A stretch of DNA of 64,000 nucleotides from Escherichia coli (GCF_965641715.1 NZ_OZ282455.1), one strand, 5' to 3'. Positions 32,021 to 58,699 are shown, numbered from the stretch's first letter. Translations and numbers: made by a program. The notes: generated from the sequence alone by a model not told the origin.

Positions 32021-32036
32021 CTGTATGCATATACAG
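32021..32036. promoter_or_regulatory. LexA (SOS) box upstream of dinI/umuDC-like operon
   Basis: CTGTATGCATATACAG = CTGT-N8-ACAG palindrome, 24 bp upstream of ATG at 31997. Confidence 0.8.
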
Positions 32037-32390
32037 TATTCTAATAACTGAATCCACACACAGTCAAATGTCATTATTGTGACTAAAAAACGCTCAATTC
32101 TCTGAGCGTGTGGCTGTATGCCTGCTGTGGACTGCTGTGTCCAGCTTATCCACAGCATTTTGCGCACGGTTCTGTGGACAAAATACCTGGTTACCCAGGC
32201 CGTGCCGGCACGTTAACCGGGCTGCATCCGATGCAAGTGTGTCGCTGTCGCCGGCCTCCTCACCCGGTCACGTTTCGTCGTTCCTCCTCCACGCGCTGCG
32301 GCTTCGGGGCCGCACCTGCATTCGTATGCGGTCGCCCGGTTACAGGTGCGGCACGGCCTGATGGAGGCCGCATGTGAGAGGAGAATTCCC

Positions 32391-56496: not shown

Positions 56497-56726
56497 GACA
56501 AAGTCTCCATTTCTGGAATTTAAATCAAACGGAAAGGTTAAAAATTTATTTGCAGGCGATAAGAGCTAACCAGAGGAATTAGCCGTGCGATAAAAGGATT
56601 GTTGCAGATACGAAAGTCGTTAGAATAGCTGCGGGCGCTTGAGGCTGTATGCCGAAAGCGTTTTGTGGACGGTATACAGCAGAAAGCCCCTGGAGATTTT
56701 TTTATCAATCAACCAAGGGCTCTACT

Positions 56727-56933
56727 GTAATGCCTAGACAACATTATAGTAGCCCGATAACCGCCGTAAGGCAATGGAGGGGCTATGATGCCACAGCGAA
56801 CGTTTTTAATGATGTTAATCGTCATCTGTGTGACGATTCTGTGTTTTGTCTGGATGGTGAGGGATTCGCTTTGCGTACTCCGGCTCCAGCAGGGAAACAC
56901 AGTGCTTGTGGCAACGTTAGCCTACGAAGTTAA
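56727..56933 (+). CDS. pndC: PndC (Mok-like) overlapping reading frame of hok-type toxin locus
   Basis: ORF overlapping pndA in another frame, as for mok/hok. Confidence 0.4.
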   Translation, partial: VMPRQHYSSPITAVRQWRGYDATANVFNDVNRHLCDDSVFCLDGEGFALRTPAPAGKHSACGNVSLRS

Positions 56934-56940
56934 ACGTTAA
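56788..56940 (+). CDS. pndA: Hok-family type I toxin PndA
   Basis: Translation MPQRTFLMMLIVICVTILCFVWMVRDSLCVLRLQQGNTVLVATLAYEVKR (50 aa); below the ORF-track length cut-off. Confidence 0.85.
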   Translation: MPQRTFLMMLIVICVTILCFVWMVRDSLCVLRLQQGNTVLVATLAYEVKR

Positions 56941-57011: not shown

Positions 57012-57263
57012 TCAATGAAGCGTATCCGGTATTGTTTCATTTCCCCTGAAGCCGATTAGCTCCAGCCGAATGCCTTTGCCATCGGGGGCCACGTTCTGCA
57101 TTTCGCAGATACCACGTCGGGTCATGAGTGTGAAGGCTGTCATTGCCAGCATGGCTAACGCGTTTTCCTCGCTTCCGCTGCGTTTCTCGAGAGCATCGGC
57201 AATTTCTTCTATGCTCCCCACCTGAAAGCAAGAGTCGAATTCTTTACTCCACTTTTCTGACAT
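57012..57263 (-). CDS. hypothetical protein
   Basis: 83-aa ORF. Confidence 0.3.
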   Translation of the reverse strand: MSEKWSKEFDSCFQVGSIEEIADALEKRSGSEENALAMLAMTAFTLMTRRGICEMQNVAPDGKGIRLELIGFRGNETIPDTLH

Positions 57264-57422
57264 CGGATTTTCTCTCTGTATTTATGGGTAGTTATCGAAC
57301 TGAATGTGCCAGTTTTTTCAGGAGACGGCAAAGTTGAGATGATTGGTTCTGATTCAGAGCATGAGTTTCCTCGGTGTGACGGGCATGTCGGGCGGATTTT
57401 GAGAAACAACAGATGTAAAAAA

Positions 57423-57448
57423 ACCGACTGGTGAGGTCGGTTTTTTTA
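57423..57448. terminator. bidirectional rho-independent terminator
   Basis: AAAAAA-CCGAC-TGGTGAG-GTCGG-TTTTTTT hairpin flanked by A- and T-tracts. Confidence 0.65.
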
Positions 57449-57761
57449 CTGTTCCGTTACAGAGTGGGTGGCCCTGACCGGAGGAAATCTCTTTTCAACT
57501 AACGTTCTTATAATAGCGAGCTGTTCATTTGATAGCAACCATCCTTATAATCCGCAGGTTAGCTCTGTCTGGCGACACTTCTGCCGTGATATCCATCGGG
57601 ACTATGGATGCAAGATTTTAAGTCCTGGCTGAACAAACAGGTGGTGCTGTGTTCAGTGCTCTGGCAGGAGGAAGTCTCTTTTCAACTAACACTGAAAGTG
57701 CCGTTGTGACAGGCAATGTAAGAGTAAGCAACGGTGATTTCCTCCAGTGATGGAGAAGCGG

Positions 57762-57857
57762 ATGATTAATCTGTTAATCATCGTTCTCAGGGCAGTAGTT
57801 GCCGTTGCAAACGCGCTGATTGCTGTTCTGGAACTGATCCGGGAACTTGTCGACTGA
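57762..57857 (+). CDS. small hydrophobic protein (31 aa), candidate membrane peptide / type I toxin-like
   Basis: ATG preceded by GGAGAAG; MINLLIIVLRAVVAVANALIAVLELIRELVD; two ~25-bp direct repeats GGAGGAA(A/G)TCTCTTTTCAACTAAC upstream (57480-57504, 57668-57692). Confidence 0.35.
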   Translation: MINLLIIVLRAVVAVANALIAVLELIRELVD

Positions 57858-57921
57858 TAAGCCTGGAAACGTAACTAAGGGCAGGGAGTTACCGCTTCCT
57901 GCCCTTTAACAAAAAGAGATC

Positions 57922-58098
57922 TCACGTTAAAAATTTGTACCCTTCTTTAACTTCCAGTGCCTGCTCCTTTGACTCAAACATCAGTCTTGTTTTCCCGGGA
58001 ACACCCCATGAAATGTATTCAACATCTATCCACCATTTTCCATATTCTTCATATGGCCCGGATATTACTTTTTTGACAAAGGCGTCTACCAGATTCAT
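57922..58098 (-). CDS. hypothetical small protein
   Basis: 58 aa from MNLVDAFVKKV... with RBS AAGGA 8 nt upstream. Confidence 0.35.
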   Translation of the reverse strand: MNLVDAFVKKVISGPYEEYGKWWIDVEYISWGVPGKTRLMFESKEQALEVKEGYKFLT

Positions 58099-58483: not shown

Positions 58484-58699
58484 TTGATTATGAGCATGCC
58501 TCCTGCGATAGCTAATACTTTCTTGTTTGAAATGATGAAGAGTAAATCAAAAGACGTTACACTTGCTGCGATCTATGCATTAGGTGAAGGCCGGTGTCAG
58601 GCGGAGAACATTACTCGTGAATTACATAGATTGAGTCAAAGTGATGATATGGAAATAAAAATTGCTGCGATTAAAGCACTTGGTCGAATTTATCGGTAA
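58484..58699 (+). CDS. small HEAT-repeat-like protein
   Basis: 71 aa; two ...AAI(Y/K)ALG(E/R)... repeats typical of HEAT/PBS-lyase repeats. Confidence 0.35.
   Translation: MIMSMPPAIANTFLFEMMKSKSKDVTLAAIYALGEGRCQAENITRELHRLSQSDDMEIKIAAIKALGRIYR

What the first reader, a model, noticed from the sequence alone, without database searches (positions are those of the whole stretch)
57470..57857. Unannotated 31-codon hydrophobic ORF preceded by two direct repeats between pnd and exc
ATG at 57762 with RBS GGAGAAG encodes MINLLIIVLRAVVAVANALIAVLELIRELVD, a single predicted TM helix, which is below the ORF-track size cut-off. Upstream are two ~25-bp direct repeats GGAGGAA(A/G)TCTCTTTTCAACTAAC at 57480-57504 and 57668-57692, and a strong bidirectional terminator at 57423-57448. 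This could be a small membrane peptide or type I toxin with a repeat-containing regulatory RNA.
Basis: seen in the sequence. Interest (0 to 1): 0.45.

Follow-up and report, generated by a model that had tools for sequence, protein, structure and literature searches.

The report
Known agrB–dqlB plasmid toxin–antitoxin module
The small hydrophobic ORF and its two repeats are the already described agrB–dqlB type I toxin–antitoxin module of IncI1 plasmid R64: one repeat is the head of a small antisense RNA and the other is its target in the toxin mRNA, so the finding is real but ordinary.

Summary
The window is 100% identical to plasmid R64, where RefSeq annotates 57762-57857 as dqlB, "DinQ-like type I toxin DqlB". 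The peptide scores 67 bits against NCBIfam NF041473 (cut-off 35).

On the opposite strand, 57503→57415 matches Rfam AgrB (55.3 bits, gathering score 40). It has its own promoter-like site and terminator.

The two "direct repeats" (33 nt, 57471-57503 and 57658-57690) are the sRNA's 5' antisense domain and its target in the dqlB 5' UTR. They pair at 32 of 33 positions. Across 11 plasmid loci this intermolecular helix shows compensatory changes at 15 of 33 pairs.

The 5' UTR carries the four-element switch described for dinQ: 1:2, 2:3, and a 3:4 hairpin that closes the Shine-Dalgarno sequence. The peptide is under purifying selection (pN/pS about 0.17).

The dql family was defined in 2016. Homologues 81% identical to this peptide were shown in 2025 to be toxic, agrB-neutralised addiction modules. 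The R64 copy itself has not been tested, and it lacks dinQ's promoter LexA box.

Interest is low. Novelty: already known.

The parts
57415..57503 (-). agrB-like antitoxin sRNA gene (about 88 nt; 5' end at G57503 or U57502)
   Evidence: Rfam RF02891 AgrB, 55.3 bits against a gathering score of 40, E 9e-8, full model 1-84. It aligns with K-12 agrA and agrB. The predicted fold has a single-stranded 5' tail, a small stem-loop and a terminator hairpin.
57510..57538 (-). sigma-70-like promoter of the sRNA (TTGCTA, 17 nt, TATTAT)
   Evidence: Promoter scan, 9 of 12 matches. The -10 hexamer ends 6-7 nt before the sRNA 5' end.
   Evidence: Inverted repeat I2, 14 nt and 100% complementary. Terminator scan on the minus strand.
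57471..57503 (-). repeat copy 1: the 5' antisense (target-recognition) domain of the sRNA
   Evidence: Direct repeat family D1. Its reverse complement pairs with 57658-57690 at 32 of 33 positions.
57546..57551 (+). predicted -10 box (TATAAT) of the dqlB promoter, with predicted +1 at G57558
   Evidence: TATAAT, 6 nt, then GTTAGC is conserved across plasmid loci. GTTAGCTCTG is the 5' end of the K-12 dinQ +1 transcript, found by counting back from G88-A119 as given in PMC5066626. The start was not mapped experimentally here.
57558..57910 (+). predicted full-length dqlB mRNA (about 350 nt, with a 204-nt 5' UTR)
   Evidence: Homology to the dinQ mRNA along its whole length. The consensus structure has compensatory changes in 36 of 93 pairs.
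57578..57585 (+). switch element 1 (CUUCUGCC), which pairs with element 2 in the full-length mRNA
   Evidence: Position homologous to dinQ U16-C28. Predicted 1:2 duplex of -18.3 kcal/mol. Covariation at alignment columns 51-55/155-159.
57658..57690 (+). repeat copy 2: the sRNA target site in the dqlB 5' UTR, containing switch element 2 (GGCAGGAGGAAGUC, 57663-57676)
   Evidence: 32 of 33 positions pair with the sRNA, including 3 G-U pairs and 1 mismatch. The cofold gains about -34.5 kcal/mol. Across loci, 15 of 33 pairs have changes on both sides and no shuffle out of 500 reaches the observed value. Homologous to the agrB target G88-A119 of dinQ.
57736..57745 (+). switch element 3 (GAUUUCCUCC), which pairs either with element 2 or with the Shine-Dalgarno sequence
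   Evidence: Inverted repeat I6 with 57667-57676. Cognate 2:3 duplexes average -18.1 kcal/mol against -13.6 for non-cognate combinations over 15 loci.
57742..57755 (+). 3:4 hairpin (CUCCA-GUGA-UGGAG) that sequesters the Shine-Dalgarno GGAG (57752-57755)
   Evidence: Predicted in all 15 homologues with compensatory changes. It forms in the model when the target site is blocked or the sRNA is co-folded; the probability that the SD is unpaired falls to 0.01.
57762..57857 (+). dqlB ORF: 31-aa hydrophobic single-helix toxin
   Evidence: Annotated as dqlB (WP_001303310.1) in the identical R64 record. NCBIfam NF041473, 67 bits against a cut-off of 35. GRAVY 1.89 and pN/pS 0.17 over 12 homologues. BLASTP to DinQ gives 11 of 17 identical residues.
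57761..57782 (+). conserved 9-bp hairpin enclosing the start codon (GAUGAUUAA-UCUG-UUAAUCAUC)
   Evidence: RNAalifold columns 255-276, kept in 15 of 15 sequences, with an AU-to-GC compensatory change in K-12 dinQ. It overlaps coding sequence, so conservation alone is ambiguous.
57877..57906 (+). terminator-like hairpin at the 3' end of the dqlB mRNA, facing the convergent 58-aa ORF
   Evidence: Inverted repeat I4. The stem is conserved with compensatory changes at columns 380-411. Only 3 T follow it, so the terminator scan did not call it.

Best explanation
This is the agrB-dqlB type I toxin-antitoxin module of IncI1 plasmid R64.

dqlB is transcribed rightward from a constitutive-looking promoter (-10 TATAAT at 57546-57551, +1 about 57558). 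The product is an mRNA of about 350 nt with a 204-nt leader, encoding a 31-aa inner-membrane toxin.

The full-length mRNA is expected to be translationally inert. Its 5' end and element 1 pair with the target/element 2 region, and element 3 closes a hairpin over the Shine-Dalgarno sequence. By analogy with dinQ +44, removal of about 58 nt from the 5' end would let element 2 capture element 3 and free the SD.

A divergently transcribed sRNA of about 88 nt (57503→57415) pairs through its 33-nt 5' tail with the leader at 57658-57690. This displaces element 3, which re-closes the SD hairpin. The long duplex is probably also an RNase III substrate.

If the plasmid is lost, the sRNA would have to decay faster than the mRNA; toxin would then be made and the plasmid-free cell killed (addiction).

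Shown here: sequence identity to the annotated gene, family membership of both the peptide and the sRNA, the complementarity, covariation, and purifying selection.

Inferred from homologues: toxicity, rescue by agrB, 5' processing, RNase III cleavage, and post-segregational killing.
For: - The region is 100% identical to R64, and the ORF is annotated there as dqlB.
- NCBIfam NF041473 scores 67 bits against a cut-off of 35.
- Rfam AgrB scores 55.3 bits against a gathering score of 40 on the opposite strand, with a promoter-like site and a terminator.
- The whole locus is colinear with K-12 agrA-dinQ.
- The sRNA 5' tail pairs with the target at 32 of 33 positions. The cofold gain is about -34.5 kcal/mol, and the SD hairpin forms in the complex.
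- In 11 plasmid loci the sRNA-target helix is 91.7% paired. 15 of 33 pairs are changed on both sides, and no shuffle out of 500 reaches that.
- Cognate sRNA-target pairs match at 22-24 of the first 24 nt; most non-cognate combinations match at 16-22, and loci whose 5' domain and target are nearly the same (window/L005, L004/L014, L003/L015) reach 22-24.
- All four switch elements are present, with compensatory changes, in 15 homologues.
- pN/pS is 0.17.
- A direct repeat with 188-nt spacing occurs in the pOXA-48-type locus, against 187 nt here.
- Literature: the dql family and its switch are described in PMC5066626. pOXA-48 DqlB is toxic and rescued by agrB, with a 4-nt mismatch plus compensatory mutation test, and killing after plasmid loss is agrB-suppressible; 67.4% of IncI1 plasmids carry dqlB (PMC12365149). 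The IncX3 locus is toxic and stabilises a plasmid (PMC12317039).
Against: - Nothing was measured for the R64 copy itself. The peptide differs at 6 of 31 residues from each validated homologue.
- The thermodynamic model does not clearly open the SD in a 5'-truncated mRNA: the probability that GGAG is unpaired is 0.17, against 0.12 for full length and 0.01 with the target blocked. The 'active' conformation is therefore supported only by homology.
- The -35 region of the dqlB promoter is poor, and the promoter scan did not call it.
- The mRNA terminator has only 3 T.
- DqlB was not detected in the proteome of an IncI1 plasmid host (PMC12211044). That is expected for a repressed toxin but gives no positive support.
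- Covariation between the two repeat copies could partly reflect gene conversion between direct repeats rather than selection on pairing.
Confidence: 0.93

Rival explanations
1. It works like chromosomal dinQ. Under this reading it is an SOS (LexA)-induced stress toxin whose main role is in the DNA-damage response of the host, not plasmid addiction.
For: It is homologous to dinQ-agrB along the whole locus. A CTG-N10-CAG motif lies at 57625-57640. It is identical to the site predicted for dqlB of IncI1 plasmid pTF2, with a heterology index of 11.64 (PMC12211044). impCAB LexA boxes are present elsewhere in the window.
Against: The dinQ LexA box CTGTATGATTATCCAG overlaps -10/+1 in K-12. The homologous R64 sequence is CCTTATAATCCGCAGG, with both half-sites lost, and the same is true of the other plasmid loci. 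The 57625-57640 motif lies at +68 to +83 inside the transcribed leader, partly within conserved stem-loop SL2, and its score is weak. The peptide is below the cut-off for the DinQ model NF041472 (20.7 bits against 30). Plasmid homologues behave as addiction modules.
Confidence: 0.08
2. It is an inactive relic. Under this reading the ORF and sRNA are decaying remnants that are no longer expressed or no longer toxic, while the neighbouring pnd module does the stabilising.
For: Some relatives clearly are relics. In L009 and L010 the segment between the two repeats, carrying both promoters, is deleted, and L009 and L016 have shortened ORFs. The -35 region is weak.
Against: In the window every element is intact: both -10 boxes, the sRNA fold, 32 of 33 pairing positions, the SD, the ORF and the terminators. 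731 plasmid records are at least 99% identical over 57300-57950. pN/pS is 0.17. Compensatory evolution of the sRNA and its target argues for continued selection.
Confidence: 0.04
3. The repeats have another role. They might be protein-coding repeats (both copies translate as GG(N/S)LFSTN in small + strand ORFs), or DNA-level sites such as iterons or recombination sites.
For: ORFs 57468-57632 and 57649-57750 both contain the translated repeat. Recombination between the copies does seem to occur (L009, L010).
Against: Those ORFs have no family support and are not conserved as reading frames (indels). Variation between loci preserves RNA pairing, including G-U pairs, rather than an amino-acid sequence. 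Copy 1 lies inside an Rfam-supported sRNA.
Confidence: 0.01

Closest known systems
agrB-dqlB of pOXA-48 (IncL) and of IncX3 pOXA-484 (PMC12365149, PMC12317039)
   Same: Same family by the NCBIfam DqlB model. The toxin is 31 aa, and 25 of 31 residues are identical to each. The sRNA is divergent and upstream. The direct-repeat geometry is the same, with 188-nt spacing in the IncL locus and 187 nt here. The leader elements are the same.
   Different: The sequence class of the sRNA head and its target is different. The sRNA of the IncL locus is too diverged for the Rfam AgrB model to find it. The genomic position differs: between pnd and excA in the IncI1 transfer region here, between repA and trbC in pOXA-48. 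The R64 copy has not been tested experimentally.
dinQ-agrA/agrB of E. coli K-12 (PMC3567139, PMC5066626)
   Same: The loci are colinear and homologous, with 76% mean column identity in a pairwise alignment. The four-element leader switch is the same. The GTTAGCTCTG mRNA 5' end is the same. The sRNA scaffold and terminator are the same. The peptide C-terminal motif LELIR is shared.
   Different: There is one sRNA gene instead of two. There is no LexA box at the promoter. The peptide is 31 aa rather than 27 aa and is below the DinQ model cut-off. The start codon is ATG rather than GTG. The module is plasmid-borne and so presumably serves addiction rather than the SOS response.
tisB-istR1, zorO-orzO and shoB-ohsC (trans-encoded type I TA systems of E. 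coli)
   Same: All have a divergently encoded sRNA that pairs with a long 5' UTR well upstream of the RBS, an inert primary transcript activated by 5' processing, and a small hydrophobic toxin. There is a weak Rfam OrzO-P similarity in the terminator part of the sRNA (33.6 bits, below the gathering score of 60).
   Different: There is no sequence homology of the toxin. The mechanism of SD closure is specific to the dinQ/dql leader.
pnd / hok-sok (the neighbouring module at 56633-56940)
   Same: It is a plasmid type I addiction module with a small membrane toxin, a folded inert mRNA and an unstable antisense RNA. It lies 0.5 kb upstream in the same window.
   Different: Sok/PndB is a cis-encoded overlapping antisense RNA acting through a leader ORF (mok/pndC). 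Here the sRNA is trans-encoded and relies on a duplicated 33-nt segment.

Membership tests
DqlB-AgrB (DinQ-like) type I toxin-antitoxin | The toxin peptide matches the curated DqlB model above its cut-off | tested here: met
   NF041473 scores 67 bits against a cut-off of 35, covering residues 1-31 of 31. RefSeq product name in the identical R64 record.
DqlB-AgrB (DinQ-like) type I toxin-antitoxin | Short hydrophobic single-helix peptide (about 27-31 aa) with a polar C-terminal tail | tested here: met
   31 aa; GRAVY 1.89 overall and 2.50 for residues 1-23; C-terminal ELIRELVD. This is a hydropathy calculation only, with no topology prediction or structure.
DqlB-AgrB (DinQ-like) type I toxin-antitoxin | AgrB-family sRNA gene nearby, transcribed divergently, with its own promoter and terminator | tested here: met
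   RF02891 scores 55.3 bits against a gathering score of 40 at 57502→57415. Promoter-like site and terminator.
DqlB-AgrB (DinQ-like) type I toxin-antitoxin | At least 30 nt of complementarity between the sRNA 5' domain and the toxin 5' UTR, upstream of the RBS | tested here: met
   32 of 33 positions pair, and the target ends 72 nt before the ATG. Covariation across 11 loci.
DqlB-AgrB (DinQ-like) type I toxin-antitoxin | Four leader elements able to form mutually exclusive 1:2, 2:3 and 3:4 (SD-closing) pairings | tested here: met
   The elements are located by homology and the duplexes are predicted, with compensatory changes, in 15 sequences. The sRNA-bound state closes the SD in silico, but the open state is not reproduced by the energy model.
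DqlB-AgrB (DinQ-like) type I toxin-antitoxin | The peptide is toxic on induction and neutralised by the sRNA through base pairing | not testable with these tools
   Shown for the pOXA-48 and IncX3 homologues only.
DqlB-AgrB (DinQ-like) type I toxin-antitoxin | 5' processing converts an inert primary transcript into a translatable one, and RNase III cleaves the duplex | not testable with these tools
   Shown for dinQ. The homologous processing point here would be about 57616 (inference).
DinQ proper (damage-inducible toxin, NF041472) | The peptide scores above the DinQ model cut-off | tested here: not met
   20.7 bits against a cut-off of 30.
DinQ proper (damage-inducible toxin, NF041472) | LexA box overlapping the toxin promoter | tested here: not met
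   K-12 has CTGTATGATTATCCAG; R64 has CCTTATAATCCGCAGG at the homologous place. The only CTG-N10-CAG nearby is inside the leader at 57625-57640.
Hok/Sok (Pnd) family | Hok/Gef-type toxin with a cis-overlapping Sok-type antisense RNA | tested here: not met
   The Rfam sok match and the Hok/Gef protein belong to the separate neighbouring locus at 56633-56940. There is no sok match at 57400-57900.

The most novel reading that the evidence does not exclude
The sRNA head and its target have co-diversified into at least five mutually poorly matching sequence classes among plasmids. Cognate pairs match at 22-24 of 24 nt with uninterrupted runs. Combinations between different classes match at 16-22 nt with runs of 5-15.

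Some plasmids carry extra 'orphan' agrB genes of a foreign class. For example, pKPNH54.2 (L003, 1097-1184) has an R64-class agrB that keeps its promoter, although that plasmid's own dqlB target belongs to another class.

If these classes are functionally insulated, orphan sRNAs could act as anti-addiction devices. They would let one IncI-complex plasmid displace a competitor, such as R64, without killing the host.

This goes beyond what I found in the papers read here. It concerns relatives of the window rather than the window itself.
Probability: 0.25. Interest if true: 0.5.

Novelty: already known. Interest (0 to 1): 0.15.

Why it matters
As a discovery it matters little. The gene is named in RefSeq for this exact sequence, the family was defined in 2016, and homologues were validated as addiction modules in 2025.

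It does have practical relevance. R64-type IncI1 plasmids carry two adjacent type I killer modules, pnd and agrB-dqlB, which helps explain their persistence. It also bears on plasmid-curing strategies, because supplying agrB in trans rescued cells cured of pOXA-48.

The sRNA gene is not annotated in the R64 record (PLSDB table), and this analysis places it and the regulatory elements to the nucleotide. The absence of a dinQ-type LexA box, and the existence of pairing-specificity classes and orphan sRNAs, are modest leads that can be tested.

Tried and rejected
- **Protein repeats.** I considered that the repeats encode GG(N/S)LFSTN motifs of a decayed adhesin or autotransporter-like gene (ORFs). 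I rejected this because the frames are not conserved and the variation preserves RNA pairing.
- **LexA control as in dinQ.** The promoter box is absent. A weak leader motif at 57625-57640 remains unresolved.
- **First alignment of the promoter.** The pairwise alignment mis-paired K-12 TATAAC with R64 TATAAT. Counting back from the published dinQ coordinates, together with the 15-sequence alignment, corrected this.
- **RNAduplex on the whole molecules.** It gave a meaningless long-range structure. I replaced it with an ungapped register scan and a cofold.
- **Thermodynamic test of the 'open SD' state.** Truncation did not give a clear opening.
- **Rfam AgrB on distant loci.** It did not detect the sRNA of the IncL/M and Enterobacter loci L018-L020. 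The direct-repeat search found it for L019.
- **Named examples in the 2016 paper.** R64 and IncI are not named in the main text of the 2016 dql paper. I did not open the supplements.

Full report
**1. What is in the sequence**

The region 57300-57950 is 100% identical to plasmid R64 (NC_005014.1). At least 99% identical copies occur in 731 plasmid records, mostly conjugative plasmids of Escherichia and Salmonella.

ATG 57762 to the stop at 57857 encodes MINLLIIVLRAVVAVANALIAVLELIRELVD, preceded by GGAGAAG at 57752-57758.

The direct repeat is real and longer than reported: 33 nt at 88% identity, 57471-57503 and 57658-57690.

The hairpin at 57415-57449 has a perfect 14-bp stem and scores as an intrinsic terminator on the minus strand.

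**2. Identity of the ORF**

In the R64 RefSeq record the ORF is annotated as dqlB, "DinQ-like type I toxin DqlB", WP_001303310.1.

- The peptide scores 67 bits against NCBIfam NF041473 (cut-off 35).
- It scores only 20.7 bits against the DinQ model NF041472 (cut-off 30).
- BLASTP against K-12 DinQ aligns the C-terminal halves, 11 of 17 identical, around the LELIR motif.
- The peptide is strongly hydrophobic (GRAVY 1.89).
- Among 12 plasmid homologues pooled pS is 0.42 and pN is 0.074, a ratio of 0.17. That means it is a protein-coding gene under purifying selection.

**3. Identity of the repeats**

A scan against Rfam finds an AgrB-family sRNA on the minus strand at 57502→57415. It scores 55.3 bits against a gathering score of 40, E 9e-8, over the full-length model.

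Directly upstream on that strand is a TTGCTA-17-TATTAT promoter-like site at 57538-57510.

Repeat copy 1 is therefore the template of the sRNA's single-stranded 5' tail (fold). Because the sRNA is read from the opposite strand, that tail is complementary to repeat copy 2, which lies in the leader of the dqlB mRNA.

The pairing covers 32 of 33 positions. Three of the four differences between the DNA repeats are transitions that leave G-U pairs. Co-folding the sRNA with the mRNA gives this duplex and a net gain of about -34.5 kcal/mol.

**4. Homology with the chromosomal dinQ locus**

The whole stretch 57405-57915 aligns colinearly with agrA-dinQ of E. coli K-12. The sRNA aligns with both agrA and agrB.

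I used the coordinates published for dinQ: agrB target G88-A119, elements 1-4, and the SD at G184-G187 (PMC5066626). From these the dinQ +1 is the G of GTTAGCTCTG. The same decamer occurs in the window at 57558, 6 nt after a perfect TATAAT at 57546-57551. This TATAAT-N6-GTTAGC arrangement recurs in other plasmid loci.

The predicted dqlB mRNA is thus about 350 nt with a 204-nt leader.

In K-12 a LexA box (CTGTATGATTATCCAG) overlaps -10/+1. The homologous R64 sequence is CCTTATAATCCGCAGG, and the other plasmid loci lack the box as well. The only CTG-N10-CAG nearby, at 57625-57640, lies inside the leader. It is the site given a weak heterology index of 11.64 for an IncI1 plasmid in PMC12211044.

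**5. Evidence from relatives**

I fetched 18 further plasmid loci from IncI-gamma/K1, IncK2/Z, IncFIB, IncX3/X4/X5 and IncL/M plasmids, among others. A distant search matches at least 5000 plasmid records.

Every locus except three distant ones (L018-L020) has an Rfam AgrB hit on the opposite strand upstream of dqlB. In the pOXA-48-type locus L019, one of those three, a direct-repeat search finds the same geometry, with 188-nt spacing against 187 nt here.

For 11 loci I concatenated the sRNA head and its target and counted pairs:

- 91.7% of cells are paired.
- 15 of 33 pairs are changed on both sides.
- No shuffle out of 500 reaches the observed values.
- Slid registers give only 37-46% pairing.

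Cognate sRNA-target pairs match at 22-24 of the first 24 nt. Most non-cognate combinations match at 16-22 nt with short runs; loci whose 5' domain and target are nearly the same (window/L005, L004/L014, L003/L015) score like cognate pairs.

Two caveats apply. Targets were located by best complementarity, although they fall at the homologous alignment position. Gene conversion between the direct repeats could also contribute to the co-variation.

**6. The leader switch**

RNAalifold on 15 mRNAs recovers the structure published for +1 dinQ:

- the 5' GUUAG pairing with CUAAC at the 3' edge of the target (the a/a' interaction);
- element 1:2;
- SL2 and SL4;
- the 3:4 hairpin over the SD;
- a hairpin enclosing the start codon;
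- the terminator.

In this consensus 36 of 93 pairs have compensatory changes.

In the window the elements are:

| Element | Sequence | Coordinates |
|---|---|---|
| 1 | CUUCUGCC | 57578-57585 |
| 2 | GGCAGGAGGAAGUC | 57663-57676 |
| 3 | GAUUUCCUCC | 57736-57745 |
| 3:4 hairpin | CUCCA-GUGA-UGGAG | 57742-57755 |

The alternative 2:3 helix, found as inverted repeat I6, is stronger for cognate than for non-cognate combinations (-18.1 against -13.6 kcal/mol).

In partition-function calculations, blocking the target or adding the sRNA closes the SD hairpin: the probability that GGAG is unpaired falls to 0.01. However, 5' truncation alone barely opens the SD (0.17 against 0.12). The translatable state rests on homology with dinQ, not on my energy model.

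**7. Mechanism**

The most likely mechanism is the published dinQ/dql one:

- The primary transcript is inert.
- 5' processing gives a translatable form. By homology this would be near 57616.
- The sRNA binds the element-2 region, which releases element 3 to sequester the SD.
- The duplex is cleaved by RNase III (PMC5066626).

For plasmid copies the biological role is addiction.

- pOXA-48 DqlB is toxic and produces ghost cells.
- agrB rescues, and rescue depends on base pairing. This was tested with a 4-nt mismatch and a compensatory mutation.
- agrB alone rescues cells from killing after plasmid destruction (PMC12365149).
- The IncX3 locus is toxic without agrB and stabilises a test plasmid (PMC12317039).

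The window's peptide is identical at 25 of 31 residues to each of these types.

None of this was measured for R64. The loss of the LexA box fits constitutive expression, as an addiction module needs, but that is an inference.

**8. Novelty and verdict**

The dql family (dqlA and dqlB, on chromosomes and plasmids) was defined in 2016. NCBI has a curated model and annotates this very gene. A 2025 survey reports dqlB on 67.4% of IncI1 plasmids.

What this analysis adds is local detail: the unannotated sRNA gene and its promoter, the predicted mRNA start, the switch elements, and the missing LexA box. It also adds a few side observations on relatives: specificity classes, orphan sRNAs and repeat-mediated deletions.

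Interest is 0.15.

Noticed in passing
L003 717-804, 1097-1184, 1343-1429 (pKPNH54.2, IncI-gamma/K1): This plasmid has three agrB-like genes upstream of one dqlB, plus an extra sok-like element at 917-1065. Only 1343-1429 matches its own dqlB target. Copy 1097-1184 differs by 1 nt from the R64 sRNA head and keeps its promoter. It is therefore an orphan antitoxin of a foreign specificity class and a possible anti-addiction device. L014 and L016 also carry a second AgrB hit.
   Followed up: partly
L009 645-888 and L010 601-858 (IncK2/Z plasmids): The sRNA 5' end lies only 71-72 nt from the dqlB ATG. That is the distance expected if recombination between the two direct repeats deleted the 187-nt segment carrying both promoters, leaving apparently dead derivatives. 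L009 also has a shortened 27-aa ORF.
   Followed up: partly
window 56633-56940: A second type I toxin-antitoxin module, pnd (Hok/Gef family protein with a Rfam sok match of 134 bits), lies 0.5 kb upstream of agrB-dqlB. R64 therefore carries two small-toxin killer modules side by side between trbA and excA.
   Followed up: no
window 57625-57640: CTGGCTGAACAAACAG is a CTG-N10-CAG motif inside the dqlB leader. It is the site reported as a possible LexA box (heterology index 11.64) for IncI1 pTF2. It lies partly within conserved stem-loop SL2, so its conservation may be structural.
   Followed up: partly
window 32021-32036 and 32048-32063: Two good LexA-box-like sequences 11 nt apart (CTGTATGCATATACAG and CTGAATCCACACACAG). 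They match the pair described upstream of impCAB in an IncI1 plasmid. CTG-N10-CAG is 2.2-fold over-represented in the whole window (43 matches against 19 expected), probably because of CTG/CAG trinucleotide bias.
   Followed up: no
window 57012-57263 (-), 57922-58098 (-), 58490-58699 (+): Three small conserved genes flank the module. They are annotated as hypothetical (83 aa and 58 aa) or as a 'HEAT repeat domain-containing protein' (69 aa). The 58-aa gene converges on the dqlB terminator hairpin.
   Followed up: no
window 57761-57782: A 9-bp hairpin (GAUGAUUAA-UCUG-UUAAUCAUC) encloses the dqlB start codon. It is kept in all 15 homologues, with a compensatory AU-to-GC change in K-12 dinQ. It could be an extra layer of translational control, or simply a consequence of the conserved MINLLII codons.
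   Followed up: no
L018, L019, L020 (IncL/M and an Enterobacter plasmid): The Rfam AgrB model (RF02891) does not detect the antitoxin sRNA of the experimentally validated pOXA-48-type locus, even at E below 0.1, although the direct repeat and its geometry are present. The Rfam family is too narrow for this branch.
   Followed up: partly
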